A stretch of DNA of 64,000 nucleotides from an uncultured virus (IMG/VR IMGVR_UViG_3300005573_001079) (IMGVR_UViG_3300005573_001079:1-64000); one strand, 5' to 3'. Positions 15,029 through 46,689 are shown, counted from the first letter of the stretch. Numbers and translations: made by a program. Notes: a model not told the origin generated them from the letters alone.

Positions 15029-15058
15029 TTAGTTGTTAAAGCTTAGTTTATTCAACAT
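15029..15058 (-). pseudogene. Terminal stub of an additional LRR unit (MLNKLSFNN*)
   Basis: ATG TTG AAT AAA CTA AGC TTT AAC AAC TAA overlaps the stop of the last LRR gene in the standard 11-nt junction. Confidence 0.85.
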
Positions 15059-15626
15059 ATACTCTTCCTCTGATTTCTACTTTACTTAAAATTTTATTTA
15101 GTTCTTCTTCCGAAAGTTTTGATAAAGGAGTGTTTTGTAAGAATAAATCCCATCCTACATATTCAAGGTTTCCTAAGGATTGAATGGGGGTATCGCGTAA
15201 GAATAAATCCCATCCTACATATTCAAGATTTCCTAAAGATTGAATAAAGGTATCACGTAAGTTTAAACTTCCTTCGACTCTTTTAAGATTACCTAATGAT
15301 TGAATAGGAGTATTTTGCAACCATAAACTACCTCCAACATAATGAAGATTTCCTAAAGATTGAATAGGAGTACTTTCTAAATCTAAACTACCTTCTACTC
15401 TTTCAAGATTTCCTAAGCTTTTGATAGAAGAATTGTATAAGTATAAATATCCTTTTACTTCTTTAATATTTCCTAAATCTTCAATCCAGTTAATTCCACG
15501 TAAATCTAAATCTCCTTCTATGATTTCTTGTTGTAGAAGTTTTTGAATTTTCGTTTTTTCCTTTTCTTCTATTTCATTAAGTTTACGTGGAATAAATATG
15601 TTGTTAAAGTTTAGTTTATTTAACAT
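15048..15626 (-). CDS. LRR array protein (192 aa)
   Basis: N-cap, 20-aa LRRs and C-cap. Confidence 0.93.
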   Translation of the reverse strand: MLNKLNFNNIFIPRKLNEIEEKEKTKIQKLLQQEIIEGDLDLRGINWIEDLGNIKEVKGYLYLYNSSIKSLGNLERVEGSLDLESTPIQSLGNLHYVGGSLWLQNTPIQSLGNLKRVEGSLNLRDTFIQSLGNLEYVGWDLFLRDTPIQSLGNLEYVGWDLFLQNTPLSKLSEEELNKILSKVEIRGRVYVE

Positions 15627-16374
15627 GTACTTCCTCTCTTATTTCTATCTTACTTAAAATTTTATTTCGTTCTTCTCTCGGAAGTTTAGATAACGGAGTG
15701 TTTTGTAAGAATAAATCTCCTCCAACATACTCAAGTTTTCCTAAAGATTGGATTTGAGAGTTTTCTAAATTTAAACTCCATCCTACTTGTTCAAGATTTC
15801 CTAAAGATTGAATAGGAGTGTTTGATAAATTTAAATAATTTCCAACATACTTAAGATTTCCTAATGATTGAATAGGAGTGTTTTCTAAATCTAAACTACC
15901 TTCAACTCGTTCAAGATTTCCTAATGATTGAATAGGAGTGTTACGTAAATCTAAGTCTTCCCCAACATAACAAAGATTTCCTAATGATTGAATGGGAGTA
16001 TTGGATAAGTATAAAGACTGCCCTGCTCGTTCAAGTTTTCCTAAAGATTGAATAGAAGTATCGTATAAATATAAATCTCCATCAACATATTGAAGATTTC
16101 CTAAAGATTGAATAGGAGTGTTTGCTACTAATAAACTTTCACCAATATAACGAAGATTTCCTAAACTTTTAATAGAAGAGTTTTGTAAATATACACTACC
16201 TTTTACTTCTCTAACGTTTCCTAAATCTTCGATCCAGTCAATTCCTTGTAAATCTAAACTTCCTTCTACGACTTCTGATTGTAGAAGTTTTTGAATTCTC
16301 ATTTTTTCTTTTTCTTCTATTTCATCTATCTTGCGTGGAATAAATATGTTGTTAAAGTTTAGTTTGTTTAACAT
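15616..16374 (-). CDS. LRR array protein (252 aa)
   Basis: Start moved to the conserved MLNKL ATG (track start 16389). Confidence 0.93.
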   Translation of the reverse strand: MLNKLNFNNIFIPRKIDEIEEKEKMRIQKLLQSEVVEGSLDLQGIDWIEDLGNVREVKGSVYLQNSSIKSLGNLRYIGESLLVANTPIQSLGNLQYVDGDLYLYDTSIQSLGKLERAGQSLYLSNTPIQSLGNLCYVGEDLDLRNTPIQSLGNLERVEGSLDLENTPIQSLGNLKYVGNYLNLSNTPIQSLGNLEQVGWSLNLENSQIQSLGKLEYVGGDLFLQNTPLSKLPREERNKILSKIEIREEVHVK

Positions 16375-17002
16375 ATGCTTTTCCTTCAATTTCTATTTTG
16401 TTTAAAATTATATTTAGTTCTTTTTTTGGAAGTTTTGATAAAGGGGTATTTTGCAAGTATAAGCTTTCCTTTACATATTTAAGGTTTCTCAAGGATTGAA
16501 TAGGAGTGTTTGACAAATCTAAATAACCCTCAACATAACAAAGATTTCCTAAGGATTGAATAGGAGTATTATGCAACCATAAATTTCCTCCTACATATTC
16601 AAGATTTCCTAATGATTGAATAGGGGTGTTTTCTAAATCTAAACTCCCTCCCACATATTCAAGATTTCCTAATGATTGAATAGGAGTATTTGATGAGAAT
16701 AAACTTTCGCCAATATACTCAAGATTTCCTAATGATTGAATAAGAGTATTGTGTAAATCTAAACAACCCTCAACATACTCAAGTTTTTCTAAACTTTTAA
16801 TAGAAGAGTTTTGTAAATATACATTACCTTTTACTTCTCTAATATTTCCTAAATCTTCGATATAGTTAATTCCATGTAAATCTAAATCTCCTTCTATAAC
16901 TTCTTGTTGAAGAATCTTTTGAATTCTCATTTTTTCTTTTTCTTCTATTTCATCTACCTTACGTGGAATGAATATGTTGTTAAAGTTTAGTTTATTTAAC
17001 AT
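16352..17002 (-). CDS. LRR array protein (216 aa, 4-aa C-terminal extension)
   Basis: Junction stop TAA changed to CAA, giving a QTKL extension. Confidence 0.93.
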   Translation of the reverse strand: MLNKLNFNNIFIPRKVDEIEEKEKMRIQKILQQEVIEGDLDLHGINYIEDLGNIREVKGNVYLQNSSIKSLEKLEYVEGCLDLHNTLIQSLGNLEYIGESLFSSNTPIQSLGNLEYVGGSLDLENTPIQSLGNLEYVGGNLWLHNTPIQSLGNLCYVEGYLDLSNTPIQSLRNLKYVKESLYLQNTPLSKLPKKELNIILNKIEIEGKAYVKQTKL

Positions 17003-17810
17003 GTACTTTTCCTATGATTCTTATCCTACTTAAGATTCTATTTAATTCTTCTTCTGAAAGTTTTGATAAAGGAGTATTTTGTAAGAATAAATCCCATCCT
17101 ACTCGTTTGAGATTTCCTAAGGATTGAATAGGGGTATTACGTAAATCTAAATCCCATCCTACTCGTTCAAGATTTTCTAATGATTGAATAGGTGTATTTC
17201 TTAAGTCTAACCGTCCTCTAACACGCTTAAGTTTTCCTAAAGATTGAATTGGAGAGTTTTGTAAATTTAAGTCTGATCCAACATATTCAAGATTTCCTAA
17301 TGATTGGATTTGAGTGTTGTGTAAATCTAAATAACCGCCAACATAACGAAGATTTCCTAATGATTGAATAGGAGTGTTTTCTAAATCTAAACTACCTTCA
17401 ACTTTTTCAAGTTTTCCTAATGATTGAATAGGAGTGTTTTCTAAATCTAAACTACCTTCAACTCGTTCAAGATTTCCTAATGATTGAATAGGTGTTTTTT
17501 CTGACCATAAATTTTCTCCAATGTATTTGAGATTTCCTAAGGATTGAATAAGAGTGTTTTCTAAATCTAAACTACCTTCAACTCGTTCGAGTTTTCCTAA
17601 AGATTGAATAGAAGAATCATATAAGTATAAATCTCCTCTTACTTCTCTAATATTTCCTAAATCTTCGATCCAGTCAATTCCATGTAAATCTAAGTCTCCT
17701 TCTATTACTTCTTGTTGTAGAAGTTTTTGAATTCTCGTTTTTTCCTTTTCTTCTATTTCATCAAGTTTACGTGGAATAAATATGTTGTTGAAGTTTAGTT
17801 TATTTAACAT
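16992..17810 (-). CDS. LRR array protein (272 aa)
   Basis: Start moved to the conserved ATG (track start 17825). Confidence 0.93.
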   Translation of the reverse strand: MLNKLNFNNIFIPRKLDEIEEKEKTRIQKLLQQEVIEGDLDLHGIDWIEDLGNIREVRGDLYLYDSSIQSLGKLERVEGSLDLENTLIQSLGNLKYIGENLWSEKTPIQSLGNLERVEGSLDLENTPIQSLGKLEKVEGSLDLENTPIQSLGNLRYVGGYLDLHNTQIQSLGNLEYVGSDLNLQNSPIQSLGKLKRVRGRLDLRNTPIQSLENLERVGWDLDLRNTPIQSLGNLKRVGWDLFLQNTPLSKLSEEELNRILSRIRIIGKVHVK

Positions 17811-18258
17811 ATACCCCTCCACCAATTTCTATCTTACTTAAAATTTTATTTAGTTCTTTTTTTGGAAGTTTTGATAAAGGAGTATTTTGTAAGTATAAGT
17901 CTTTTCTAACATACTCAAGATTTCCTAATGATTGAATTGGAGTATTTTGTAAATATAAATAACCTCCAACATAATGAAGATTTCCTAAAGATTGAATAGG
18001 AGTACTTTCTAAATCTAAACTACCTTCTACTCTTTCAAGATTTCCTAAGCTTTTGATAGAAGAATTGTATAAGTATAAATATCCTTTTACTTCTTTAATA
18101 TTTCCTAAATCTTCAATCCAATTAATTCTTTGTAAATCTAAATCTCCTTCTATGATTTCTTGTTGAAGAATCTTTTGAATTTTCTTTTTTTCTTTTTCTT
18201 CTATTTCATCTATTCTACGTGGAATAAATATATTGTTAAAGCTTAGTTTATTCGACAT
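17800..18258 (-). CDS. LRR array protein (152 aa, mosaic)
   Basis: Shortest full unit; segments are identical to two other members. Confidence 0.93.
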   Translation of the reverse strand: MSNKLSFNNIFIPRRIDEIEEKEKKKIQKILQQEIIEGDLDLQRINWIEDLGNIKEVKGYLYLYNSSIKSLGNLERVEGSLDLESTPIQSLGNLHYVGGYLYLQNTPIQSLGNLEYVRKDLYLQNTPLSKLPKKELNKILSKIEIGGGVYVK

Positions 18259-19999
18259 ATACTCCTCTACTAATTCTTATCTTACTTAAAATTTTATTTA
18301 GTTCTTCTCTTGGAAGTTTAGATAATGGAGTATTTTTTAAGTATAAAGCTCCTCCAACATAACGAAGATTTCCTAATGATTGAATTTGAGAGTTTTGTAA
18401 GTATAAATTCCATTCTACATATTTGAGGTTTCCTAAAGATTGAATAGGAGTGTTTGATAAATTCAAATAACCACCAACACGTTCAAGATTTCCTAATGAT
18501 TGAATAGGAGTGTTTTGTAAATTTAAATCTCTGTCAACTCGTTCAAGATTTCCTAATGATTGAATAGAAGTTTTACGTAAATCTAAATCTCTCCCAACAT
18601 AACGAAGATTTCCTAAAGATTGAATAGAAGTGTTTTCTAACCATAAATCTTCTTCTACTCTCTCAAGATTTCCTAATGATTGAATAGGAGTATTTGATAA
18701 ATTTAAGCTACCCTTTATATGTTTAAAATTTCCTAACGATTGAATTTGAGTGTTTGCTACATATAAACTTCCACCAATATACTCAAGATTTTCTAATGAT
18801 TGAATAGGAGTGTTATATAAATCTAAATAACCTCCAACATAACGAAGATTTCCTAATGATGGGATAGGAGTGTTTTGTAAATTTAAGCCTAATCCAACGC
18901 GTTCAAGATTTCCTAATGATTGAATAGGAGTGTTATGTAAATCTAAATCCCATTCTATTCGTTCAAGGTTTCCTAACGATTGAATTTGAGAGTTTGATGC
19001 TAATAAACTTTTACCAATATGCTCAAGGTTTCCTAATGATTGAATAGGAGTGTTACGTAAATCTAAATGACCACCAACATAACGAAGATTTCCTAAACTT
19101 TTAATAGAAGAGTTTCGTAAATATGCATCACCTTTTACTTCTCTAATGTTTCCTAAATCTTCAATCCAGTTAATTCCACGTAAATCTAAATCTTCTTCTA
19201 TAACTTCTTGTTGTAAAAGTTTTTGAACTCTTTCTCTTTCTTCTATTCCATCTATTATTTGTGGAATAATAAGCAGGTTGTTAAATTTTAGTTTGTTTAA
19301 CTTATGTACATATGTTTCTCCTTCTACTTTTACTTTACTTAAAATTTTATTTAGTTCTTCTTCTGGAAGTTCGGATAAAGGCGTGTCTTGTAAGTATAAG
19401 TTTTTTCCAACATAATTGAGATTTCCTAATGACTGAATAGGAGTGTCGGATAAATCTAAATTTCCTCCAACATATTCAAGATTTCCTAAGGATTGAATTT
19501 GGGTGCTTTGTAAACTTAAACTGCCTTCAACTCTTTCAAGTCTTCCTAATGATTGAATAGGAGTGTCGGATAACCATAAATCTCCGTAAACCTCTTTAAG
19601 ATTTCCTAAAGATTGAATGGAGGTTTCACGTAAATCTAAATTTCCTCCAGCATATTCAAGATTTCCTAATGATTGAATAGGGGTATCCTCTGCGTATAAA
19701 TTTCCTCCAATATATTTAAGATTTCCTAATGATTCAATAGAAGTATAGTGTAACCATAAACTACCTTCGACTTTTTCAAGATTTCCTAAAGATTGAATAG
19801 AAGAGTGTTGTAAATATACATTACCTCTTACTTCTTTAACATTTCCTAAATCTTCAATCTGATTAGTTTCTTGTAAATTTAAGTCTCCTTCTACAACTTC
19901 TTGTTGTAAAAGTTTTTGAGCTCTTACTCTTTCTTTTTCTAATATTTCATCTGTTTTGCGTGGAATAAATATGTTGTTAAAACTTAGCTTGTTTGACAT
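18248..19999 (-). CDS. LRR array protein, in-frame fusion of two units (583 aa)
   Basis: Internal C-cap/N-cap junction GETYVHKLNKLKFNN. Start moved to the conserved ATG (track start 20014). Confidence 0.92.
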   Translation of the reverse strand: MSNKLSFNNIFIPRKTDEILEKERVRAQKLLQQEVVEGDLNLQETNQIEDLGNVKEVRGNVYLQHSSIQSLGNLEKVEGSLWLHYTSIESLGNLKYIGGNLYAEDTPIQSLGNLEYAGGNLDLRETSIQSLGNLKEVYGDLWLSDTPIQSLGRLERVEGSLSLQSTQIQSLGNLEYVGGNLDLSDTPIQSLGNLNYVGKNLYLQDTPLSELPEEELNKILSKVKVEGETYVHKLNKLKFNNLLIIPQIIDGIEERERVQKLLQQEVIEEDLDLRGINWIEDLGNIREVKGDAYLRNSSIKSLGNLRYVGGHLDLRNTPIQSLGNLEHIGKSLLASNSQIQSLGNLERIEWDLDLHNTPIQSLGNLERVGLGLNLQNTPIPSLGNLRYVGGYLDLYNTPIQSLENLEYIGGSLYVANTQIQSLGNFKHIKGSLNLSNTPIQSLGNLERVEEDLWLENTSIQSLGNLRYVGRDLDLRKTSIQSLGNLERVDRDLNLQNTPIQSLGNLERVGGYLNLSNTPIQSLGNLKYVEWNLYLQNSQIQSLGNLRYVGGALYLKNTPLSKLPREELNKILSKIRISRGVYVE

Positions 20000-20507
20000 A
20001 TGCTTTTCCTCCAATTTTTATTTTGTTTAAAATTATATTTAGTTCTTCTTTTGGAAGTCTTGATAAAGGAGTGTTTTGTAAGAATAAATCCCATCCTACA
20101 TACTTAAGATTTCCTAATGATTGAATAGGAGTATTGCGTAAGAATAAATCCCATCCTACATATTCAAGATTTCCTAATGATTGAATAGGAGTATTGCGTA
20201 AATCTAAATCTCCTCCAACGTGGCGAAGATTTCCTAACGATTGAATAGGAGTATTTTGTAAATTTAAGTCTGCCTCAACATATTCAAGATTTCCTAAACT
20301 TTTAATAGAAGAGTTTTGTAAGTATAAATCTCCTTTTACTTCTTTAATATTTCCTAAATCTTCAATCCAATTAATTCCATGTAAATCTAAATCTCCTTCT
20401 ACGACTTTTTGTTGTAGAATCTTTTGAATTCTCATTCTTTCTTTTTCTTCTATTTTATCTATCTTACGTGGAATAAATATGTTATCAAAACTTAGTTTGT
20501 TTGACAT
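19977..20507 (-). CDS. LRR array protein (176 aa)
   Basis: N-cap, LRRs and C-cap with a QAKF extension. Confidence 0.93.
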   Translation of the reverse strand: MSNKLSFDNIFIPRKIDKIEEKERMRIQKILQQKVVEGDLDLHGINWIEDLGNIKEVKGDLYLQNSSIKSLGNLEYVEADLNLQNTPIQSLGNLRHVGGDLDLRNTPIQSLGNLEYVGWDLFLRNTPIQSLGNLKYVGWDLFLQNTPLSRLPKEELNIILNKIKIGGKAYVKQAKF

Positions 20508-21258
20508 ATACTCTTTTTCCGATTTCTATTTTACTTAAAATTTTGTTTAGTTCTTCTTTCGAAAGTTTAGATAAAAGTGTGTTTTGTAAGTATAAGTTTT
20601 TTCCAACATAACGAAGATTTCCTAAAGATTGGATGGAAGTGTCTGATAAACCTAAACTTCCTCCTACATGTTTAAGATTTCCTAGTGATTGAATAGGAGT
20701 GTTGGATAACCATAAATTTCCTCCTACATGTTGAAGATTTCCTAATGACTGAATAGGAGTGTTTTGTAAATGTAAGTCTGCTCCAACATATTCAAGGTTT
20801 CCTAATGATTGGATTTGAGAGTTTTGTAAGTATAAACTCCACCCTACATATTTAAGATTTCCTAATGATTGAATGGGAATGTTTTCTAACCGTAAACTGC
20901 CTCCAACTTTTTCAAGATTTCCTAATGATTGAATAGGGGTATTTTGTAACCATAAACTGTTTCCAACATACTTAAGCTTTCCTAAACTTTTGATGGAAGA
21001 ACCATGTAAGTATAAATGGCCTCTTACTTCTCTAATATTTCCTAAATCTTCGATCCAATTAATTCCGTGTAAATCTAAATCTCCTCTTACTTCTCTAATA
21101 TTTCCTAAATCTTCAATCCAATTAATTCCATGTAAATCTAAGTCTCCTTCTACGACTTCTTGTTGTAAAAGTCTTTGAATTCTCATTTTTTCTTTTTCTT
21201 CTATTTCATCTATCTTGCGTGGAATAAATATGTTGTCAAAACTTAGTTTATTTAACAT
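20485..21258 (-). CDS. LRR array protein (257 aa, duplicated first 21-aa repeat)
   Basis: DLDLHGINWIEDLGNIREVRG occurs twice. Confidence 0.93.
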   Translation of the reverse strand: MLNKLSFDNIFIPRKIDEIEEKEKMRIQRLLQQEVVEGDLDLHGINWIEDLGNIREVRGDLDLHGINWIEDLGNIREVRGHLYLHGSSIKSLGKLKYVGNSLWLQNTPIQSLGNLEKVGGSLRLENIPIQSLGNLKYVGWSLYLQNSQIQSLGNLEYVGADLHLQNTPIQSLGNLQHVGGNLWLSNTPIQSLGNLKHVGGSLGLSDTSIQSLGNLRYVGKNLYLQNTLLSKLSKEELNKILSKIEIGKRVYVKQTKF

Positions 21259-22066
21259 ATACTTCTCCTTCGATTTCTATCTTACTTAAAATTTTGTTTA
21301 GTTCTTCTTTTGGAAGTTTAGATAATGGAGTATTTCTTAAGTCTATCCATCCTCTGACATACTTAAGTTTTCCTAAAGATTGAATTTGAGAATCGTGTAA
21401 ATCTAAATAACCTCCAACATGTTGAAGATTTCCTAATAATCGGATTTGAGAGTTTCGTAAATCTAAATAACCTCCGACATATTCAAGATTTCCTAATGAT
21501 TGAATAGAAGTATTTTGTAAATATAAATCTTCTCCAACATATTGAAGATTTCCTAAAGATTGAATAGGAGTGTTTTCTAAATCTAAACTCTTTCCAACGT
21601 ATTGAAGATTTCCTAATGATTGAATAGGAGTGTTATATAAATTTAAATAATCTTCAACATAACGAAGATTTCCTAATGATTGAATTTGAGAATTTTCTAA
21701 ACGTAAATCTCCTTCTACTCTTTCAAGGTTTTCTAATGATCGAATAGGAGTGTTATATATCCATAAATTTCTTCCAACATATTCAAGATTTCCTAATGAT
21801 TGGATTTGAGAATTTTCTAAATGTAAATTTCCATCTACTCTTTCAAGATTTCTTAAACTTTTAATGGGGGAATCACTTAAATTTAAATTCCCTCTTACTT
21901 CTCTAATATTTCCTAAATCTTCAATCCAGTCAATTCTACGTAAATCTAAATCTCCTTCTATGATTTCTTGTTGAAGAATCTGTTGAATTCTCGTTTTTTC
22001 TTTTTCTTCTATTTCATCTATCTTACGAGGAATAAATATGTTATTAAAACTTAGTTTATTCAACAT
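21248..22066 (-). CDS. LRR array protein (272 aa)
   Basis: Start moved to the conserved ATG (track start 22081). Confidence 0.93.
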   Translation of the reverse strand: MLNKLSFNNIFIPRKIDEIEEKEKTRIQQILQQEIIEGDLDLRRIDWIEDLGNIREVRGNLNLSDSPIKSLRNLERVDGNLHLENSQIQSLGNLEYVGRNLWIYNTPIRSLENLERVEGDLRLENSQIQSLGNLRYVEDYLNLYNTPIQSLGNLQYVGKSLDLENTPIQSLGNLQYVGEDLYLQNTSIQSLGNLEYVGGYLDLRNSQIRLLGNLQHVGGYLDLHDSQIQSLGKLKYVRGWIDLRNTPLSKLPKEELNKILSKIEIEGEVYVK

Positions 22067-23502: not shown

Positions 23503-24250
23503 ATACTTCTCCTCCGATTTCTATCTTACTTAAGATTCTATTTAATTCTTCTTCTGGAAGTTTTGATAAAGATGTGTTTCGTAAGTATAAGTCTTTTCCA
23601 ACATAACGAAGATTTCCTAAAGATTGAATAGAAGTATTACGTAAACTTAACCATTCTCCAATACGTTCAAGATTTCCTAATGATTGAATAGGAGTATCTC
23701 TTAGGTCTAACCATCCTCTAACATAATGAAGATTTCCTAAGGATTGAATAGAAGCTTTTTGTAAATCTAACCACGATCCTACATATTCGAGATTTCCTAA
23801 TGATTGAATAGGAGTGTTGTGTAAATCTAAATAACCACCAACATAACGAAGATTCCCTAATGATTGAATAGGAGTGCTTTCTAAATCTAAATTACCTTCA
23901 ACTCGTTCAAGTTTTTCTAATGATTGAATAGGAGTGTTGCGTAAATTTAAATCTTCTCCAACATAACGAAGATTTCCTAATGATTGAATAGGAGTGTTTG
24001 AGGCTAATAAACTTTCACCAATATACTCAAGATTTTCTAAACTTTTAATGGAAGAGTTTCGTAAATCTAAATTCCCTCTTACTTCTCTAACATTTCCTAA
24101 ATCTTCGATCTGATTAATCCCTTGTAAATCTAAATCTCCTTCTATGATTTCTTGTTGTAGAAGTTTTTGAATTCTCGTTTTTTCTTTTTCTTCTATTTCA
24201 TCTATTTTACGTGGAATGAATATACCATTAAAGCTTAGTTTATCTAACAT
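23492..24250 (-). CDS. LRR array protein (252 aa)
   Basis: Start moved to the conserved ATG (track start 24265). Confidence 0.93.
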   Translation of the reverse strand: MLDKLSFNGIFIPRKIDEIEEKEKTRIQKLLQQEIIEGDLDLQGINQIEDLGNVREVRGNLDLRNSSIKSLENLEYIGESLLASNTPIQSLGNLRYVGEDLNLRNTPIQSLEKLERVEGNLDLESTPIQSLGNLRYVGGYLDLHNTPIQSLGNLEYVGSWLDLQKASIQSLGNLHYVRGWLDLRDTPIQSLGNLERIGEWLSLRNTSIQSLGNLRYVGKDLYLRNTSLSKLPEEELNRILSKIEIGGEVYVE

Positions 24251-24815
24251 ATACTTCTCCACCAATTTCTATTTTGTTTAAAATTATATTTAGTTCTTTT
24301 CTTGGAAGTTTTGATAATGGAGTATTTCTTAAGTATAAACATGCTCCAACATACTTAAGTTTTCCCAATGATTGAATAGGAGTGTTTTCTAAATCTAAAC
24401 TCTCTCCTACGTGTTGAAGATTTCCCAATGATTGGATTTGAGAATTGTCTAACCATAGATTCCCATTAACTCGTTCAAGATTTCCTAATGATTGAATAGG
24501 AGTATTGTATAACCATAAATCCCCATTAACTTTTTTAAGATTCCCTAAAGATTGAATTTGAGAATTGTATAACCATAAACTTTTTTCAACATACTCTAGT
24601 TTTCCTAAACTTTTAATAGAAGAGTTTTGTAAGTATAAATTACCTCTTACTTCTCTAATATTTCCTAAATCTTCGATCCAGTTAATTCCGGGTAAATCTA
24701 AACTTCCTTCTACAACTTCTTGTTGAAGAATCTTTTGAATTCTCGTTTTTTCTTTTTCTTCTATTTCATCTATTCTACGTGGAATAAATATGTCGTTAAA
24801 ACTTAGTTTATACAT
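24240..24815 (-). CDS. LRR array protein (191 aa)
   Basis: N-cap one codon shorter (MYKLSF); 8-nt overlap with the upstream gene. Confidence 0.93.
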   Translation of the reverse strand: MYKLSFNDIFIPRRIDEIEEKEKTRIQKILQQEVVEGSLDLPGINWIEDLGNIREVRGNLYLQNSSIKSLGKLEYVEKSLWLYNSQIQSLGNLKKVNGDLWLYNTPIQSLGNLERVNGNLWLDNSQIQSLGNLQHVGESLDLENTPIQSLGKLKYVGACLYLRNTPLSKLPRKELNIILNKIEIGGEVYVR

Positions 24816-25683
24816 ATATCCCCTCTTCTATTTCTATCTTACTTAAAATTCTATTTAATTCTTCTTTTGGAAGTTTTGATAATGGAGTATCTCTTAAGTC
24901 TATCCATCCTCTAACATACTCAAGTTTTCCTAAAGATTGAATTTGAGAGTTTTGTAAATCTAAATTCCCTCCTACTTGTTGGAGATTTCCTAATGATTGA
25001 ATAGGAGTGTTGTGTAAATCTAAAGATTGTCCTACATAACGAAGATTTCCTAATGATTGAATTTGAGAATTTTCTAACTGTAAGTCTTCGTCAACTTGTT
25101 CAAGATTTCCTAATGATTGAATAGGGGTATCGTGTAAATCTAAATAACCACCAACATAACGAAGATTTCCCAAGGATTGAATGGAAGTATGGTCTAACCA
25201 TAAATCTCTGTCAACTCGTTCAAGATTTCCTAATGATTGAATGGGGGTGTTTGCTAAATCTAAACTTCCCTCTACATATTTAAGATTTCCTAATGATTGA
25301 ATTTGAGAATTTTCTAAATGTAAATTTCCATCTACTCTTTCAAGATTTCCTAATGATTGAATTTGAGAATTTTCTAAATGTAAATTTCCATCTACTCTTT
25401 CAAGATTTCCTAATGATTGAATAGGAGAGTTTTCTAAGCGTAAATCTCCATCTACTCTTTCAAGCTTTCCTAAACGTTTAATAGAAGAGTCTTGTAAGTA
25501 TAAATTACCTCTTACTTCTCTAACGTTTCCTAAATCTTCGATCCAGTCAATTCTAGATAAATCTAACCATCCTTCTATGATTTCTTGTTGCAGAAGTTTT
25601 CGAATTTTCTTTTTTTCTCTTTCTTCTATTTCATCTATTCTACGAGGGATAAATATGTTGTTAAAGCTTGGTTTATTTAACAT
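24808..25683 (-). CDS. LRR array protein (291 aa)
   Basis: Contains a perfect 60-nt tandem duplication. Confidence 0.93.
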   Translation of the reverse strand: MLNKPSFNNIFIPRRIDEIEEREKKKIRKLLQQEIIEGWLDLSRIDWIEDLGNVREVRGNLYLQDSSIKRLGKLERVDGDLRLENSPIQSLGNLERVDGNLHLENSQIQSLGNLERVDGNLHLENSQIQSLGNLKYVEGSLDLANTPIQSLGNLERVDRDLWLDHTSIQSLGNLRYVGGYLDLHDTPIQSLGNLEQVDEDLQLENSQIQSLGNLRYVGQSLDLHNTPIQSLGNLQQVGGNLDLQNSQIQSLGKLEYVRGWIDLRDTPLSKLPKEELNRILSKIEIEEGIYV

Positions 25684-26371
25684 ATACTTCTCCTTCGATT
25701 TCTATCTTACTTAAAATTTTATTTAGTTCTTCTTCTGGAAGTTTTGATAAAGGAGTATTTCGTAAGTATAAGTCTTTTCCAACATAACGAAGATTTCCTA
25801 AAGATTGAATAGGAGTGTTTCTTAAGTCTAGCCATCTTCCAACGTGTTGAAGATTTCCTAATGATTGAATAGGAGTGTTTTGTAAATCTAAAGACTGTCC
25901 AACGTACTTAAGATTTCCTAATGATTGAATTTGAGAGTTTTTTAACCATAAACCTTCCCCAACATGACAAAGATTTCCTAATGATTGGATTTGAGAATTA
26001 TGTAAATCTAAATAACCACCAACATATTGAAGATTTCCTAATGACTGAATAGGAACATTGAGTAAATATAAAGACTGTCCCACATATTGAAGATTTCCTA
26101 AAGATTGGATTTGAATACTGTATAACCATAAATCTCCATCAACTCTTTCAAGCTTCCCTAAACTTTTAATGGAAGAGTTTTGTAAATATACATTGCCTTT
26201 TACTTCTCTAATGTTTCCTAAATCTTCAATACAGTTAATTTCGTGTAAATCTAAGTCCCCTTCTACGACTTCTGGCCGTAGAAGTTTTTGAATTCTCATT
26301 TTTTCTTTTTCTTCTATTTCATCTATCTTACGTGGAATAAATATGTTATCAAAACTTAGTTTATCTAACAT
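25673..26371 (-). CDS. LRR array protein (232 aa)
   Basis: N-cap, LRRs and C-cap. Confidence 0.93.
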   Translation of the reverse strand: MLDKLSFDNIFIPRKIDEIEEKEKMRIQKLLRPEVVEGDLDLHEINCIEDLGNIREVKGNVYLQNSSIKSLGKLERVDGDLWLYSIQIQSLGNLQYVGQSLYLLNVPIQSLGNLQYVGGYLDLHNSQIQSLGNLCHVGEGLWLKNSQIQSLGNLKYVGQSLDLQNTPIQSLGNLQHVGRWLDLRNTPIQSLGNLRYVGKDLYLRNTPLSKLPEEELNKILSKIEIEGEVYVK

Positions 26372-27119
26372 ATACTTTTCCTCTAATTTCTATCTTACTT
26401 AAGATTCTATTTAATTCTTCTTCTGGAAGTTCTGATAATGAGGTATTTTGCAAGTATAAGTTTTTTCCAACATAATGAAGATCACCTAAAGATTGAATTT
26501 GAGAGTTTTGTAAATCTAAATTCCACCCTACATAATGAAGATTTCCTAATGATTGAATAGGAGTGTTTGATGCAAATAAACTTTCGCCAATATACTCAAG
26601 ATTTCTTAATGATTGAATAGGAGTATTTTGTAAGTATAAACTACGTCCTACATGTTCAAGATTTCCTAATGATTGAATTTGAGAGTTTCGTAAATCTAAC
26701 CATCCTCTAATATAATAAAGATTTCCTAATGATTGAATAGAAGTGTTACGTAAATTTAAATAACCTCCAACATATTCGAGATTTTCTAATGATTGAATAA
26801 AAGTGTTTTCTAAATCTAAACTACCTTCAACTCGTTCAAGATTTCCTAATGATTGAATGGGAGTGTTTTCTAACCATAAATCTCCGTTAACTTGTTTAAG
26901 ATTTCCTAAACTTTTAATGGAAGAGTTTTGTAAATATACATTACCTCTTACTTCTTTAACATTTCCTAAATCTTCGATCCAGTTAATTCCGCGTAAATCT
27001 AAATCTCCTTCTATGACTTCTTGTTGAAGAATCTTTTGAATTCTCGTTTTTTCTTTTTCTTCTATTTCATCAAGTTTACGTGGAATGAATATGTTGTTAA
27101 AACTTAGTTTATTTAACAT
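26361..27119 (-). CDS. LRR array protein (252 aa)
   Basis: N-cap, LRRs and C-cap. Confidence 0.93.
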   Translation of the reverse strand: MLNKLSFNNIFIPRKLDEIEEKEKTRIQKILQQEVIEGDLDLRGINWIEDLGNVKEVRGNVYLQNSSIKSLGNLKQVNGDLWLENTPIQSLGNLERVEGSLDLENTFIQSLENLEYVGGYLNLRNTSIQSLGNLYYIRGWLDLRNSQIQSLGNLEHVGRSLYLQNTPIQSLRNLEYIGESLFASNTPIQSLGNLHYVGWNLDLQNSQIQSLGDLHYVGKNLYLQNTSLSELPEEELNRILSKIEIRGKVYVR

Positions 27120-27687
27120 ATACTTTTCTTCTAATTTCTATCTTACTTAAAATTTTATTTAGTTCTTCTTTTGGAAGTTTTGATAAAGGAGTATTTTGTA
27201 AGTATAAGTCTTTTCTAACATACTCAAGATTTCCTAATGATTGAATTGGAGTATTTTGTAAATATAAATAACCTCCAACATATTCAAGATTTCCTAATGA
27301 TTGAATAGGAGTATTTTGTAAGTATAAACTCCGCCCTACATATTTAAGATTTCCTAATGATTGAATAGGAGTATTTTGTAACCATAAACTGCCTCCAACA
27401 TAACGAAGATTTCCTAATGATTGAATAGAAGTGTTTTCTAACCATAAACTGCCTTCGACCTTTTCAAGATTTCCTAAACTTTTAATGGAAGAATCATTTA
27501 AGTATAAATCTCCTTTTACTTCTCTAATATTTCCTAAATCTTCGATCCAGTTAATTCCACGTAAATCTAAATCTCCTTCTATGATTTCTTGTTGAAGAAT
27601 CTTTTGAATTCTCGTTTTTTCTTTTTCTTCTATTTCATCAAGTTTACGTGGAATAAATATGTTATCAAAACTTAGTTTATCTAACAT
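27109..27687 (-). CDS. LRR array protein (192 aa)
   Basis: Start moved to the conserved ATG (track start 27702). Confidence 0.93.
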   Translation of the reverse strand: MLDKLSFDNIFIPRKLDEIEEKEKTRIQKILQQEIIEGDLDLRGINWIEDLGNIREVKGDLYLNDSSIKSLGNLEKVEGSLWLENTSIQSLGNLRYVGGSLWLQNTPIQSLGNLKYVGRSLYLQNTPIQSLGNLEYVGGYLYLQNTPIQSLGNLEYVRKDLYLQNTPLSKLPKEELNKILSKIEIRRKVYVK

Positions 27688-28255
27688 GTACTTCTTGTCC
27701 AATTTCTATCTTACTTAAAATTTTATTTAGTTCTTTTTTTGGAAGTTTAGATAATGGAGTATTTTGTAAGTATAATCTCCTTCCAACATATTCGAGATTT
27801 CCTAATGATTGAATAGGAGTATTATTCAACCATAAACTGCTTCCAACATAACGAAGATTTCCTAATGATTGGATTTGAGAATTGTGTAAATCAAAATGAC
27901 CTCCTACATATTTAAGATTCCCTAATGATTGAATAGAAGTATTACGTAAATCTAAACTCCCTCCAACATAACGAAGATTTCCTAATGATTGAACGAGAGT
28001 ATTTTCTAACCATAAATCACCTCCAACCCTTTCAAGATTTCCTAAACTTTTAATAGAAGAATCGTGTAAATCTAAACTGCCTCTTACTTCTTTAACATTT
28101 CCTAAATCTTCAATCCAATTAATTCCATATAAATCTAAATCTCCTTCTATGATTTCTTGTTGAAGAATCTTTTGAATTCTCGTTTTTTCTTTTTCTTCTA
28201 TTTCATCTATTTTACGTGGAATGAATATATTATCAAAACTTAGTTTATTCAACAT
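27677..28255 (-). CDS. LRR array protein (192 aa)
   Basis: N-cap, LRRs and C-cap. Confidence 0.93.
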   Translation of the reverse strand: MLNKLSFDNIFIPRKIDEIEEKEKTRIQKILQQEIIEGDLDLYGINWIEDLGNVKEVRGSLDLHDSSIKSLGNLERVGGDLWLENTLVQSLGNLRYVGGSLDLRNTSIQSLGNLKYVGGHFDLHNSQIQSLGNLRYVGSSLWLNNTPIQSLGNLEYVGRRLYLQNTPLSKLPKKELNKILSKIEIGQEVHVR

Positions 28256-29060
28256 ATACTTCTCCTCTGATTTCTATTTTACTTAAAATTTTATTTAGTT
28301 CTTCTTTTGAAAGTTTTGATAATGGGGTATTTCGTAAGTCTAACCATCCTCTGACATACTCGAGATTTCCTAATGATTGAATAGGAGTATTGCGTAAATC
28401 TAAATAGCTACCAACATAACAAAGATTTTCTAGTGATTGAATGAGAGTATTCGATAAATCTAAATCTTCTCCAACATAACGAAGATTTCCTAATGATTGA
28501 ATAGGAGTGTTTTCTAACCATAAATCTTTGCCAACTCTTTCAAGATTTCCTAAAGATTGGATTTGAGAGTTTGCTGCTAATAAACTCTCACCGACATATT
28601 CGAGGTCTCCTAAGGATTGAATTTGAGAGTTTTTTAAATCTAAATTCCCCCCTACATACTCAAGTTTTCCTAAAGACTGAATAGAAGTATTACGTAAATC
28701 TAAAGACTGTCCAACATATTCGAGGTCTCCTAATGATTGGATTTGAGAGTTTTCTAACCATAGATTTTTCCTGACATAACAAAGATTTCCTAATGATTGA
28801 ATAGGAGTATTGTGTGAATATAAACCTCCATTAACTTTTTCAAGTTTTCCTAAACTTTTAATGGAAGAATCATATAAGTATAAATCCCCTCTTACTTCTC
28901 TAATATTCCCTAAATCTTCAATCCAATCAATTCCATGTAAATCTAAATCTCCTTCTATGACTTCTTGTTGAAGAAGTTTTTGAATTTTCGTTTTTTCTTT
29001 TTCTTCTATTTCATCTATCTTACGTGGAATAAATATGTTGTTAAAGTTTGATTTATTCAA
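28245..29060 (-). CDS. LRR array protein (271 aa, TTG start)
   Basis: The conserved junction ATG is changed to ATA; the next codon TTG is the likely start. Confidence 0.88.
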   Translation of the reverse strand: MNKSNFNNIFIPRKIDEIEEKEKTKIQKLLQQEVIEGDLDLHGIDWIEDLGNIREVRGDLYLYDSSIKSLGKLEKVNGGLYSHNTPIQSLGNLCYVRKNLWLENSQIQSLGDLEYVGQSLDLRNTSIQSLGKLEYVGGNLDLKNSQIQSLGDLEYVGESLLAANSQIQSLGNLERVGKDLWLENTPIQSLGNLRYVGEDLDLSNTLIQSLENLCYVGSYLDLRNTPIQSLGNLEYVRGWLDLRNTPLSKLSKEELNKILSKIEIRGEVYVE

Positions 29061-29691
29061 TATATATTTCTCCTTTTATTTCTATTCCGCTTAAAATTTC
29101 ATCCAATTCTTCTTTTGGAAGTTTAGATAAAGGAGTATTTCGTAAGTATAAGTCTTTTCCAACATAACAAAGATTTCCTAATGATTGAATAGGAGTGTTT
29201 CTTAAGTCTAACCATCTTCCAACATATTGAAGATTTCCTAAAGATTGAATAGAGGTATTATATAAATCTAAGTTCCATCTTACATGTTCAAGATTTCCTA
29301 ATGATTGGATTTGAGAGTTTTGTAAGTATAAACTTCCCTCCACTTGTTTAAGACTTCCTAATGATTGAATAGAAGTATCTTGTAAATATAAATCTTCTCC
29401 AACATATTTGAGATTTCCTAAAGATTGAATAGGGGTGTTTTCTAAACTTAAATCTCCTTCAACTCTCTCAAGATTTCCTAAACTTTTAATGGAAGAGTTT
29501 TGTAAATATACATTACCTCTTACTTCTTTAACATTTCCTAAATCTTCAATCCAATTAATTCCTTGTAAATCTAAATCTCCTTCTATAATTTCTTGTTGTA
29601 GAAGTTTTTGAATTTTTGCTCTTTCTTTTTCTTCTATTTCATCTATTTTACGTGGAATAAATATGTTATCAAAACTTAGTTTATTTAACAT
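29053..29691 (-). CDS. LRR array protein (212 aa), first full unit
   Basis: N-cap, LRRs and C-cap. Confidence 0.93.
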   Translation of the reverse strand: MLNKLSFDNIFIPRKIDEIEEKERAKIQKLLQQEIIEGDLDLQGINWIEDLGNVKEVRGNVYLQNSSIKSLGNLERVEGDLSLENTPIQSLGNLKYVGEDLYLQDTSIQSLGSLKQVEGSLYLQNSQIQSLGNLEHVRWNLDLYNTSIQSLGNLQYVGRWLDLRNTPIQSLGNLCYVGKDLYLRNTPLSKLPKEELDEILSGIEIKGEIYIE

Positions 29692-29827
29692 ATGCTTTTC
29701 CTTCTATTTTTATTTTGTTTAAAATTATATTTAGTTTTTTTGGAGGTTTGGATGATGGTGTGTTTTGAATTTTTTTTATTCTATTGGGTTTGCAAGAAAT
29801 AAATATGATAGGGCATTTTTTTTCCAT
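29681..29827 (-). CDS. 48-aa zero-repeat leader ORF of the LRR array (degenerate N-cap joined to C-cap)
   Basis: Hand translation: MEKKCPIIFISCKPNRIKKIQNTPSSKPPKKLNIILNKIKIEGKAYVK*. Overlaps the next ATG by the standard 11 nt. Confidence 0.7.
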   Translation of the reverse strand: MEKKCPIIFISCKPNRIKKIQNTPSSKPPKKLNIILNKIKIEGKAYVK

Positions 29828-29869
29828 TATATTATTTTCTCTTAAAAAAATCAATAATGACTAATATAA

Positions 29870-29907
29870 TACAACAAAAAAAGTTTTTTCAAACTTTTTT
29901 TGTTGTA
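29870..29907 (-). terminator. 17-bp perfect inverted repeat between sheath and LRR array
   Basis: tacaacaaaaaaagttt-tttc-aaactttttttgttgta. The stem is AT-rich, so a terminator or operator role is uncertain. Confidence 0.5.
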
Positions 29908-31382: not shown

Positions 31383-31461
31383 TTTCACTTACTCCTTTTT
31401 ATATAAATTTTAATTGTTTACAAAATAGTATTAAAGTACATAATATATATAGTTACACTTA

Positions 31462-46662: not shown

Positions 46663-46689
46663 CAGGAGTTTAAAATGGCCGAATTAATA

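What the first reader, a model, noticed from the sequence alone, without database searches (positions are those of the whole stretch)
15029..29827. Phage-encoded repertoire of 20 tandem hypervariable LRR genes (VLR-like binder library)
Seen: 20 consecutive intact ORFs (21 units) share a constant N-cap and C-cap around a variable number of 20-aa repeats, so lengths step by 20 aa (152, 172, 192, 212, 232, 252, 272, ~292). Within each repeat the N(T/S)(P/Q)IQSLGNL framework is almost invariant. The x positions of xxVxxxLxLx vary freely and are rich in W, Y, H, R, D and E. No two genes have the same repeat string and none has an internal stop or frameshift. Established: in LRR solenoids the residues between the conserved leucines of the beta strand form the ligand-binding face, and cap-plus-variable-LRR architecture is how jawless-vertebrate variable lymphocyte receptors generate diversity. 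Inference: this is a selected, diversifying panel of binding proteins, for example anti-defence inhibitors, host-factor binders or competitor-phage antagonists. There are no signal peptides, TM segments or catalytic domains. I do not know of a characterised phage system like this, although short LRRs themselves do occur in phages.
Basis: partly seen in the sequence, partly recalled or inferred. Interest (0 to 1): 0.93.

Follow-up and report, generated by a model that had tools for sequence, protein, structure and literature searches.

The report
Phage array of twenty LRR-binder genes
An uncultured tailed phage of about 131 kb carries 20 intact back-to-back genes for small leucine-rich-repeat proteins that share a fixed scaffold but differ in one surface and in repeat number, which looks like a ready-made set of binding proteins whose targets are unknown.

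Summary
On the minus strand, 29691..15048, lie 20 intact overlapping ORFs (21 units, because one gene fuses two). Each has a 44-aa N-cap, 4-14 repeats of 20 aa and a 28-aa C-cap. AlphaFold2 gives a confident solenoid (pLDDT 93) whose nearest folds are LRR proteins.

Framework positions are nearly invariant. Positions 11, 12, 14, 15, 16, 18 and 20 give 118 distinct signatures in 128 internal repeats. They are enriched in W, Y, H, R and G and never hold I, T, V, P or M.

Positive selection is not proven. dN at variable sites exceeds dS at framework sites across all pairs, but is about neutral in nearest pairs. The array is old and stable, with no reverse transcriptase and no read-level variants.

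The family is large and nearly all viral. Smaller arrays occur in other phages, and the same repeat is a module of injected "polyvalent" proteins.

Best reading (0.45): a germline panel of soluble binders used in phage-host conflict. "VLR-like" holds for architecture only. I found no published description.

The parts
29934..31388 (-). Upstream flank: tail sheath gene (484 aa)
   Evidence: phrog_2839 tail sheath, E 1.9e-26. tblastn matches annotated mycobacteriophage tail sheath genes at 26% identity.
29870..29907 (-). Terminator-like A/T-rich hairpin (17 pairs) just after the sheath gene
   Evidence: Consensus scan, sequence and fold. Its function is not shown.
29826..29854 (-). Promoter-like site (TTGATT, 17 nt spacer, TATAAT) upstream of the array
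   Evidence: Such matches are fewer than in shuffles of this AT-rich region (68 found, 98.5 expected), so this is only a candidate.
29687..29773 (-). Decayed C-cap remnant that supplies the ribosome-binding site for g01
   Evidence: Matches residues 242-271 of g10 at 59% identity, E 0.0028. Sequence.
29053..29691 (-). g01, 212 aa, 7 repeats
28245..29060 (-). g02, 271 aa, 10 repeats, TTG start (the usual ATG is lost)
27677..28255 (-). g03, 192 aa, 6 repeats
27109..27687 (-). g04, 192 aa, 6 repeats
26361..27119 (-). g05, 252 aa, 9 repeats
25673..26371 (-). g06, 232 aa, 8 repeats
24808..25683 (-). g07, 291 aa, 11 repeats (two adjacent repeats 95% identical in DNA)
24240..24815 (-). g08, 191 aa, 6 repeats
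23492..24250 (-). g09, 252 aa, 9 repeats
22684..23502 (-). g10, 272 aa, 10 repeats; the unit that was modelled and used as the search query
   Evidence: AlphaFold2 pLDDT 93.3.
22056..22694 (-). g11, 212 aa, 7 repeats
21248..22066 (-). g12, 272 aa, 10 repeats
20485..21258 (-). g13, 257 aa, 8 repeats, a 21-aa internal duplication at the N-cap/first-repeat border and a 4-aa longer tail
19977..20507 (-). g14, 176 aa, 5 repeats, 4-aa longer tail
18248..19999 (-). g15, 583 aa: in-frame fusion of two units (8 + 14 repeats). The second unit begins at 19303 with AAG and has a decayed N-terminal motif.
   Evidence: Junction sequence. The N-terminal motif is missing in this unit only (20 of 21 units have it).
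17800..18258 (-). g16, 152 aa, 4 repeats (the shortest)
   Evidence: Its first 342 nt are 93% identical to g20.
16992..17810 (-). g17, 272 aa, 10 repeats
16352..17002 (-). g18, 216 aa, 7 repeats, 4-aa longer tail
15616..16374 (-). g19, 252 aa, 9 repeats
15048..15626 (-). g20, 192 aa, 6 repeats (last gene)
15029..15058 (-). Nine-codon N-cap stub (MLNKLSFNN*) left at the 3' edge of the array
14327..14824 (-). Downstream flank: 165-aa ORF of unknown function, reached after a 223-nt AT-rich spacer

Best explanation
The locus is a germline-encoded, co-expressed panel of 20 small soluble LRR-type solenoid proteins.

**How each protein is built.** Each keeps the same caps, hydrophobic core and one constant side. 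It presents a different surface, built from positions 11, 12, 14-16, 18 and 20 of each 20-aa turn. Its length is set by the number of repeats.

**What I think they do.** I read them as stoichiometric protein binders used in phage-host (or phage-versus-rival-element) conflict. Each would grip a different host or competitor protein, for example a defence sensor or effector. One phage genome would then cover many alternative targets.

**Shown.** The anatomy, the fold class, purifying selection on the scaffold, a restricted binder-like alphabet at the variable sites, overlapping genes with a ribosome-binding site inside each preceding C-cap, and the family's viral distribution and its presence in polyvalent proteins.

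**Inferred.** That they bind proteins, what the targets are, and when they are expressed.
For: 1. **Twenty intact genes despite old divergence.** N-cap DNA identity averages 86% (range 73-95%), and only one inter-gene stretch of 120 nt or more is at least 90% identical. dN/dS is 0.30 for the N-cap, 0.23 for the C-cap and 0.12 for the framework. The genes are therefore maintained by selection.
2. **Fold.** The solenoid model is confident (pLDDT 93.3, pTM 0.87). The best structural matches are LRR binders such as SDS22, Leptospira LRR proteins and LGR4/5. The nearest solved sequences are Vibrio FlrP (E 1.6e-10) and YopM.
3. **Variable sites.** There are 118 distinct 7-residue signatures in 128 internal repeats. 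W is enriched 4.3-fold, Y 3.0, H 2.8, R 2.75 and G 2.7. I, T, V, P and M occur 0 times in 896 variable sites. This is constrained, interface-like diversity, not drift.
4. **Rate comparison.** Over the same repeat pairs, pN at variable sites is 0.47, against pS at framework sites of 0.27.
5. **Same positions elsewhere.** Positions 16, 18 and 20 are also the most variable in 3 of 3 independent arrays of other phage contigs that have different caps.
6. **Varied charge.** pI ranges from 4.6 to 8.6 and net charge from -15 to +2. This fits different targets, not one shared ligand.
7. **Operon layout.** All 19 gene junctions overlap (14 by 11 nt, 2 by 8 nt, 3 by 23 nt), with GGAGG-like sites inside the upstream C-cap. 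This fits one operon with coupled translation.
8. **Conflict context of relatives.**
   - The same repeat family is fused to ART-PolyVal, PBECR5, SprT-like, DUF5661, PcfJ, KTSC, and LPD23 plus a C5 methylase. These are hallmarks of the injected polyvalent proteins of Iyer et al. 2017 (PMC5512222; abstract read).
   - In the cultured phage Edno5, the single homologue sits in the early-left operon between CI and exo/RecT.
   - In 3 of 3 annotated multi-copy loci of other phages, the arrays lie among methyltransferases and nucleases, not among tail genes.
9. **Viral distribution.** The nearest ESM-Atlas clusters are 97-100% viral.
Against: - No binding partner, expression data or phenotype exists. 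No RNA run was available.
- The conservative test does not show positive selection. In 42 independent nearest pairs, pN(variable) is 0.153, against pS(all) of 0.187, pS(framework) of 0.138 and pS(variable) of 0.225. The Fisher tests against all-site and framework synonymous changes are not significant, and the test against variable-site synonymous changes points the other way (odds ratio 0.62, p 0.04).
- In this phage the array sits inside the virion-structure block, directly after the tail sheath gene. That position would also suit a virion role.
- Neither of the two libraries scanned with array proteins gave a functional family: Pfam matched only repeat-type models and PADLOC nothing relevant.
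- The mapping of variable sites to one side rests on the DSSP pattern of the model and on general LRR knowledge. I had no model coordinates.
Confidence: 0.45

Rival explanations
1. The LRR proteins are packaged in the virion and injected with the DNA. They would act like T4 internal proteins, or like free-standing versions of the LRR modules of polyvalent proteins, and meet host defences in the first seconds of infection. The conserved, probably disordered N-terminal peptide would be the packaging or processing signal.
For: - The same repeat family is a module of polyvalent proteins (ART-PolyVal in 5 of the 104 long relatives by precomputed Pfam; PBECR5, SprT-like, DUF5661, PcfJ and KTSC in others). 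Such proteins are predicted to be injected with the DNA (PMC5512222 abstract).
- Residues 1-14 have pLDDT below 50, yet the motif (L/F)xFNNIFIPR is present in 20 of 21 units. It is decayed only in the one unit that is no longer N-terminal, g15b.
- IDE and IEE tripeptides follow the motif. From recall, they resemble the (L/I)xE cleavage motif of the T4 prohead protease.
- The array lies in the late structural block.
Against: - There is no proteomic evidence.
- The N-terminal motif occurs in no other gene of the 143-ORF genome, apart from a partial look-alike in the next ORF. No shared targeting signal is therefore seen.
- The first codons overlap the upstream gene and the translation-initiation region, which alone could conserve them.
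- IxE tripeptides are too short to test.
Confidence: 0.2
2. The proteins are exposed on the virion. They would dock on the tail through the constant side or caps and show the variable side outward. In that case they act as a set of adhesins or accessory receptor-binding proteins that widen adsorption.
For: - The position is immediately downstream of the tail sheath gene and upstream of tail-module genes (phrog_985 virion structural protein, phrog_52 tail protein).
- Constant caps with a variable body match the layout of exchangeable receptor-binding proteins (from recall).
- The closest solved relative, FlrP, decorates a tubular assembly, the flagellar rod (passages of 10.64898/2025.12.04.692373).
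Against: - Relatives in other phages are not in tail modules (0 of 3 annotated multi-copy loci; Edno5 early operon).
- Twenty different small monomers with no recognisable virion-anchoring domain would be unusual.
- A terminator-like hairpin and a promoter-like site separate the array from the sheath gene.
Confidence: 0.12
3. The array is a neutral or selfish expansion. Unequal crossing-over inflated a dispensable gene, and the surface positions differ only because they are unconstrained.
For: - Omega at the variable sites is about 0.7-1.1 in nearest pairs.
- Remnants at both edges and the repeat-number variation show unequal recombination.
- Array position and sequence similarity are unrelated (Mantel r -0.13, p 0.90, and r 0.02, p 0.41).
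Against: - All 20 ORFs are intact, although the caps have diverged by about 14-17% in DNA on average (up to 29% in the most distant pair).
- Purifying selection on the scaffold is strong.
- The variable sites exclude five common residues completely and over-use W, Y, H and R. Neutrality in a 29% GC genome would not give this.
- The array takes about 11% of a compact one-strand genome.
Confidence: 0.08
4. The array is an assembly artefact, or its diversity is generated by a targeted mutagenesis system such as a diversity-generating retroelement.
For: - Logan contigs (31-letter words) break into pieces of 230-359 nt inside the array, and no contig spans it.
- Three joints with 20-21-letter sides were listed.
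Against: - The units differ by about 14-27% in DNA. The longest exact repeat is 159 nt and only 9 exact repeats reach 60 nt.
- A second record with different break points is 100% identical over the array and its flanks.
- 336 of 350 (X1) and 328 of 344 (X2) laid pieces are at least 99% alike, with no other letters or indels listed.
- No reverse transcriptase was found: 0 of 1 record, while the control rang in 4 of 14 genomes.
- The two records and the two runs may share sources, so these checks are not fully independent.
Confidence: 0.02

Closest known systems
LRR/L-domain-like modules inside phage and plasmid 'polyvalent proteins' (Iyer et al. 2017, PMC5512222)
   Same: The same 20-residue repeat family by sequence. 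For example, P0132 matches at E 5.6e-59 and carries ART-PolyVal and DUF5661, and P0303 carries PBECR5 and ART-PolyVal. Both belong to mobile-element conflict genes.
   Different: Here the repeat domain stands alone as a 152-291-aa protein with its own caps and is multiplied 21 times. The 2017 paper's main text mentions no LRR (0 hits for 'LRR' or 'leucine-rich'; supplements not read).
Small tandem arrays of the same family in other uncultured phages (loci L005, L008, L012; earlier scan notes e1-6034370, e1-5991907)
   Same: Cap, variable number of 20-aa repeats, cap. There are 3-5 tandem paralogues, and positions 16, 18 and 20 are variable.
   Different: Those arrays have other N-terminal regions (MKI[IV]I[TS]E...) and an invariant SVGG at positions 12-15. 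They lie among non-structural genes. The array here is four times larger, sits after the sheath gene, and has a wider variable patch (positions 11, 12, 14 and 15 as well).
Vibrio FlrP (PDB 8Z5U), a small beta-solenoid LRR protein on the polar flagellar rod
   Same: It is the closest solved sequence (profile E 1.6e-10, 142 aligned residues, 20-residue register). It is a small cap-solenoid-tail protein that works purely by binding other proteins (passages).
   Different: FlrP has a Sec signal peptide, is periplasmic, is a single bacterial gene and has one fixed partner.
Variable lymphocyte receptors of lampreys and hagfish (from recall)
   Same: N-cap, a variable number of LRR modules and a C-cap, with diversity concentrated on the beta-strand face.
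   Different: VLR diversity is assembled somatically from cassettes into an incomplete germline gene. VLR caps are Cys-rich, the modules are 24 aa, and the proteins are secreted or membrane-anchored. None of this is seen here.
Virus-encoded multigene families of repeat-protein binders, such as poxvirus ankyrin/PRANC host-range genes and giant-virus ankyrin or FNIP expansions (from recall)
   Same: Tandem paralogous families of solenoid binders in a viral genome, linked to host range and immune evasion, that grow by unequal recombination.
   Different: They have a different fold and a eukaryotic host, and they often couple to ubiquitin ligases. No such adaptor domain is present here.
Receptor L domain (Pfam PF01030)
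   Same: 5 of 5 tested units score above the gathering cut-off (29.5-67.9 bits against 21.8).
   Different: The matches cover only about half of the 112-position profile (positions 3-62). They reflect the shared repeat pattern, not a complete L domain. There are no furin-like or Cys-rich neighbours and no receptor context.

Membership tests
Leucine-rich-repeat superfamily (structural class) | Tandem 20-30-residue repeats with a conserved hydrophobic/Asn pattern (LxxLxLxxNxL) | tested here: inconclusive
   The 20-aa period is strict (170 repeats). The pattern is VxxxLxLxNTxIxSLxNL: the Asn comes one residue earlier, and there are three residues, not two, before the strand. Pfam LRR_4 stays below its cut-off (24.0 against 27). 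LRR_EndoS is above its cut-off in 2 of 5 units.
Leucine-rich-repeat superfamily (structural class) | Right-handed solenoid with one parallel beta-sheet face, closest in fold to known LRR proteins | tested here: met
   AlphaFold2 pLDDT 93.3. Foldseek finds 26 matches at E of 0.001 or better. Every listed match at that level is an LRR protein (SDS22, Leptospira LRR, LGR4/5, SHOC2), with probability 0.98-1.00 and TM 0.24-0.45.
Receptor L domain PF01030 | Score above Pfam's gathering cut-off | tested here: met
   5 of 5 units score 29.5-67.9 bits against 21.8, but each match is partial (profile positions 3-62 of 112).
Variable lymphocyte receptor system | Incomplete germline gene flanked by donor cassettes, with somatic assembly | tested here: not met
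   All 20 genes are complete ORFs with both caps. The only fragments are a 9-codon stub and one decayed C-cap. No read-level variants appeared in two runs.
Variable lymphocyte receptor system | Signal peptide, Cys-rich LRRNT and LRRCT caps, 24-aa LRRV modules | tested here: not met
   No hydrophobic N-terminus (maximum KD 0.69). The caps have no conserved Cys. The repeats are 20 aa.
Diversity-generating retroelement target | Reverse transcriptase plus template repeat in the same genome | tested here: not met
   PF00078 matched 0 of 1 record, while the control rang in 4 of 14 genomes. The record lacks about 2.1 kb of the genome.
Polyvalent proteins (Iyer et al. 2017) | Two to fifteen domains of disparate activity in one polypeptide | tested here: not met
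   The array proteins hold only the repeat domain. They share the repeat module with polyvalent proteins but are not polyvalent themselves.
T4-type internal proteins | N-terminal capsid-targeting peptide cleaved by the prohead protease, with the protein present in the head | not testable with these tools
   A conserved, low-confidence N-terminal 14 residues followed by IDE/IEE is compatible. Cleavage and packaging need proteomics.
Known anti-phage defence proteins (PADLOC) | Match to a defence-system model | tested here: not met
   0 of 4 units give a relevant match. The one weak hit (E 0.002) is to a methyltransferase model.

The most novel reading that the evidence does not exclude
The array is a pre-made, inherited "repertoire" of binders. 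The phage would load them into the particle, or make them at once on entry, so that a single genome carries about 21 different neutralisers for the alternative defence sensors or effectors found across a diverse host population. That would be a viral counterpart of an innate receptor repertoire. The same module would be reused as the targeting part of injected polyvalent enzymes.
Probability: 0.2. Interest if true: 0.85.

Novelty: new variant of a known kind. Interest (0 to 1): 0.62.

Why it matters
Phage counter-defence proteins known so far are mostly single, dedicated inhibitors. This phage spends about 11% of its genome on 20 maintained variants of one binding scaffold. The same scaffold recurs in thousands of viral protein clusters and inside injected polyvalent proteins.

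That points to a general, modular way for phages to recognise many host proteins. If targets can be found, the family would give three things:
- a new class of host-range or anti-defence factors;
- a natural library of small, Cys-poor, stable binders from a hot-spring phage;
- a handle on what the unexplained repeat modules of polyvalent proteins do.

If the proteins prove to be virion decorations instead, the locus would be an unusual multi-adhesin system.

Tried and rejected
- **Diversity-generating retroelement.** No reverse transcriptase, and the framework Asn codons are not the variable ones. Rejected.
- **DNA mimicry** (one acidic surface shared by all). pI ranges from 4.6 to 8.6 and net charge from -15 to +2. 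Rejected as a common function.
- **Homodimer through the constant side.** Complex prediction gave no answer (score 0.00, mark 0.42). This is no evidence either way.
- **Expression.** No RNA holder was listed.
- **Read-level population variation.** Only Logan contigs were available. None spans the array. The three joints have sides of 20-21 letters, which I take as repeat noise.
- **Shared docking motif.** The next ORF (14327..14824) holds LSFNNPGFIPT, which resembles the N-cap. Its homologue P0342 keeps only GFIPT, and a 99%-identical variant, P0341, has FIS. BLASTP finds no wider similarity. I treat it as chance or a small recombination scar.
- **Recent cassette shuffling.** Only one inter-gene stretch of 120 nt or more is at least 90% identical, and there is no link between position and similarity. 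Shuffling is old, if it happened.
- **Is the 146-aa gene (12982..13422) the tail tube?** No PDB sequence hit. The single-sequence AlphaFold2 model has pLDDT 51, too poor to search with. Left open.
- **Fetching the contigs of the nearest relatives (P0001, P0003, P0006).**
  - The viral and metagenome scans returned only this phage's own record and an unrelated giant protein.
  - The genome-contig scan with the N-cap patterns found 602 stretches, none related.
  - The scan with P0012 found nothing.
  - The alignment A1 was too diverse to scan with.
- **Host inference.** There are no tRNAs in the window.
- **Other library searches.** Rfam found nothing in 12-32 kb. ART-PolyVal was not found in this genome, but the control genomes were silent too, so this is uninformative.
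- **Earlier scan notes.** None for this genome and none by the sequence of g10.

Full report

The ORF listing shows an unbroken series of ORFs on the minus strand from 29691 to 15048. I re-anchored each on the conserved start (M[LS][ND]KLSF...). That gives 20 genes of 212, 271, 192, 192, 252, 232, 291, 191, 252, 272, 212, 272, 257, 176, 583, 152, 272, 216, 252 and 192 aa.

- The 583-aa gene (g15, 19999..18248) is an in-frame fusion of two units. At the junction an indel has removed the stop codon and the separate start.
- The array therefore holds 21 units.
- Its edges are a decayed C-cap upstream of g01 (29773..29687) and a nine-codon N-cap stub after g20 (15058..15029). These are the marks of growth by unequal recombination.
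- Each unit has an N-cap (44 aa in 17 of 21 units), 4-14 repeats of exactly 20 aa (170 in all) and a C-cap (28 aa in 17 of 21).
- Off-step lengths come from three 4-aa longer tails, one-residue cap differences and a 21-aa internal duplication in g13. There is no 172-aa gene.
- All 19 junctions overlap (14 by 11 nt, 2 by 8 nt, 3 by 23 nt). A GGAGG-like site lies in the codons of the upstream C-cap. The genes are built to be translated as a chain.

**2. The repeat.**

Among the 128 internal repeats, 126 protein sequences and 127 DNA sequences are distinct.
- Positions 4-10, 13, 17 and 19 (I-Q-S-L-G-N-L, V, L, L) have entropy of 0.7 bit or less.
- Positions 1-3 are semi-variable: N, then T/S, then P/Q/S.
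- Positions 11, 12, 14, 15, 16, 18 and 20 carry 1.5-2.7 bits.
- The seven variable residues form 118 distinct signatures in 128 repeats.

The variable positions do not vary freely. Compared with 29 other proteins of this phage, W is enriched 4.3-fold, Y 3.0, H 2.8, R 2.75, G 2.7 and Q 2.3. I, T, V, P and M occur 0 times in 896 sites. That is the alphabet of protein-binding surfaces. It is not what a 29% GC genome gives by drift.

**3. Fold and family.**

- Pfam: Recep_L_domain scores above its cut-off in 5 of 5 units tested. LRR_EndoS scores above its cut-off in 2 of 5. LRR_4 stays just below.
- AlphaFold2 on a 26-row alignment gives pLDDT 93.3 and pTM 0.87. The model has a disordered N-terminus (residues 1-14), a capping helix (16-31), a regular solenoid with short strands at repeat positions 6, 12-13 and 17-18, and a helical C-cap.
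- Foldseek's 26 matches at E of 0.001 or better are headed by LRR proteins: Leptospira LIC10831, SDS22, LGR4/5 and SHOC2. TM-scores are only 0.24-0.45, as expected for a different curvature.
- By sequence profile, the nearest solved chains are Vibrio FlrP (8Z5U, E 1.6e-10) and YopM (E 2.3e-5). From the passages I read, FlrP is a 21.5-kDa beta-solenoid LRR protein bound to the flagellar rod.
- The motif (VxxxLxLxNTxIxSLxNL) departs from the canonical LxxLxLxxNxL by one residue on each side of the strand.
- From the strand pattern and general LRR knowledge, I infer that 16, 18 and 20 are the outward residues of the classical binding strand, and that 11-15 form the flank leading into it. The T-P-I-Q-S-L-G-N half of each turn would be the constant side. 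I could not read model coordinates, so this mapping is inference.

**4. Evolution.**

The array is old.
- N-cap DNA identity averages 86% (73-95%), C-cap 83% and internal repeats 73%.
- Only one stretch of 120 nt or more between different genes is at least 90% identical: g16 and g20, 342 nt at 93%.
- Similarity does not follow position in the array (Mantel r -0.13, p 0.90 for N-caps; r 0.02, p 0.41 for C-caps).

Purifying selection is clear on the scaffold. dN/dS is 0.30 for the N-cap, 0.23 for the C-cap and 0.12 for framework codons.

For the variable codons the answer depends on the test.
- Over all 8128 repeat pairs, pN is 0.473 against pS 0.272 at the interleaved framework codons. Corrected, the ratio is about 2.2.
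- pN stays at 0.47 even among pairs with identical framework DNA.
- In 42 independent nearest pairs (at least 85% identity), pN(variable) is 0.153. That compares with pS 0.138 (framework), 0.187 (all sites) and 0.225 (variable codons). None of the tests shows an excess of non-synonymous change: two are not significant, and the comparison with variable-codon synonymous change goes the other way (Fisher odds ratio 0.62, p 0.04).
- Choosing pairs by overall identity biases the second test downward. Codon bias may depress framework pS in the first.

The honest reading is an omega of about 0.7 to 2: at or above neutrality, with strong compositional selection. Diversifying selection is plausible but unproven.

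Nothing points to programmed hypermutation. There is no reverse transcriptase, and the genes are not "hypervariable" on short time scales.

**5. Is it an assembly artefact?** Unlikely.

- The longest exact repeat inside the array is 159 nt, and only 9 exact repeats reach 60 nt.
- A second virus record (G005, 133,380 nt) with different break points is 100% identical over 12687-41388.
- Genome-wide, that record differs only at 25 positions, all inside a 75-nt tandem repeat of another gene.
- The two records together show a circular or circularly permuted genome of about 131 kb.
- Two runs labelled hot springs metagenome hold the stretch. When laid, 336 of 350 and 328 of 344 pieces are at least 99% alike, and no other letters or indels are listed.
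- The long flanking contigs stop at 15107 and 29707. The pieces inside the array are short and none spans it.
- These sources may overlap with the samples the records came from, so they are not fully independent.

**6. Surroundings.**

The record is a tailed phage.
- Genes in the window: tail sheath (29934..31388), major head protein (46690..47610), portal (52958..54853), large terminase (60276..62147), endolysin and exonuclease.
- All 143 ORFs I called are on one strand, and only 18 gaps exceed 60 nt.
- The array follows the sheath gene after a terminator-like A/T hairpin and a promoter-like site. Neither is proven.
- After a 223-nt spacer come two unknown ORFs and then a "virion structural protein" (phrog_985), which may be the tube.
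- No known RNA family lies in 12-32 kb.
- No further copy of the family exists elsewhere in the genome.

**7. Relatives.**

The family is large.
- There are 255 word-indexed hits of similar length and 2642 clusters at E of 0.001 or better in the exhaustive search.
- The nearest ESM-Atlas clusters are 97-100% viral.
- Three metagenome proteins (P0001, P0003, P0006) share both caps. They are only 55-71% identical to the best unit here, no closer than the paralogues are to each other.
- A sister subfamily (MHKLSFNSK.F[IV]PRK...) has at least nine distinct members on 1-2 kb contigs, probably another array that failed to assemble.
- In 16 other viral loci I found 1-5 copies each. There are tandem arrays of 3 (L005), 5 (L008) and 4+1 (L012, a 282-kb record). 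Each array has its own conserved N-terminal region and a variable repeat number.
- In those three arrays the variable positions are again 16, 18 and 20 (plus 1), while 12-15 are fixed.
- Their neighbours are DNA methyltransferases, endonuclease VII, a homing endonuclease, thymidylate synthase and a phosphoesterase, not tail genes.
- In GenBank phages the family is rare. g10 hits 4 of 50,697 records and the L012 protein hits 3. In phage Edno5 the single gene lies in the early-left operon between CI and exo/RecT.
- Long relatives fuse the same repeats to ART-PolyVal (5 of 104 by precomputed Pfam), PBECR5, SprT-like, DUF5661, PcfJ, KTSC, DUF5824 with a GNAT domain, and, in a 3461-aa protein, LPD23 plus a C5 DNA methylase.
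- These are the signature domains of the "polyvalent proteins" that Iyer et al. predict are injected with phage or plasmid DNA (PMC5512222, abstract read). That paper's main text mentions no LRR (supplements not read).

**8. How it most likely works.**

- **Shown:** a maintained, co-arranged set of 20 soluble solenoid proteins with a common scaffold and individually different, binder-like surfaces of different lengths and charges (pI 4.6-8.6). They belong to a viral family that elsewhere sits among early or accessory genes and inside conflict proteins.
- **Inferred:** each member binds a different protein, and the set serves phage-host or phage-rival conflict by titrating or blocking targets (0.45).

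The main rivals differ in where the proteins act.
- **Packaged and injected (0.20).** This is favoured by the link to polyvalent proteins and by a conserved but disordered N-terminal peptide. That peptide is present in 20 of 21 units and has decayed only in the unit that became internal.
- **Exposed on the tail as adhesins (0.12).** This is favoured only by the position next to the sheath gene.
- **Neutral expansion (0.08) and artefact or retroelement (0.02).** The data argue against both.

**9. Novelty.**

LRR binders, tandem LRR gene families and viral multigene families of repeat proteins are all known kinds. A phage array of this size and this family is not in print as far as six full-text searches show. 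Earlier notes of this scan describe comparable arrays in T4-like jumbo phages (AI notes, only partly checked here through L012). I therefore file the locus as a new variant of a known kind. It is of clear but not exceptional interest until a target or phenotype is found.

Noticed in passing
window 41556-43082 (-), 42001-42981; also window 1-316 and the far end of the genome (128617-128925): A 508-aa fibre-like protein is built from 25-aa (75-nt) repeats (NNLQNQITLVSGSLxTEIQxRINxD). The same repeat lies at both ends of the record. Both assemblies break in this repeat, and all 25 mismatches between them fall here.
   Followed up: partly
window 38784-40154 and 40175-41545 (-): Two adjacent 456-aa paralogues with beta-propeller (WD40/PD40-like) matches and 138-nt internal repeats. 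They may be receptor-binding or tail-fibre parts.
   Followed up: no
whole genome G000 (128,925 nt) and G005: All 143 ORFs I called lie on one strand, and only 18 gaps exceed 60 nt. Two records with different break points show a circular or permuted genome of about 131 kb, so CheckV's 74% completeness is probably an underestimate.
   Followed up: partly
window 14327-14824 (-), residues 79-90: The ORF just downstream of the array holds LSFNNPGFIPT, which resembles the N-cap motif LSFNNIFIPR. It is the only such match outside the array. A homologue keeps only GFIPT, and a 99%-identical variant has FIS, so this is probably a scar or chance.
   Followed up: yes
L023:4187-14572 (+): A 3461-aa protein of another viral contig joins this repeat family to LPD23 (a polyvalent-protein domain) and a C5 cytosine DNA methylase.
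   Followed up: partly
window 3677-4455 (-), inside the 932-aa gene 2741-5539: Internal 126/258-nt tandem repeats in a large protein of the tail region (phrog_27227).
   Followed up: no
window 46540-46689 and 47611-47743 (-): Strong GC-containing hairpins follow the major head protein gene and the gene before it. Like the hairpin after the sheath gene, they look like terminators or attenuators behind abundant structural genes.
   Followed up: no
proteins P0005, P0009-P0011, P0013, P0016, P0017, P0024, P0032: Nine distinct members (58-76% identical to each other) of a sister subfamily with the same N-cap motif, all on contigs of 1-2 kb. They probably come from another large array that short-read assembly could not join.
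   Followed up: partly
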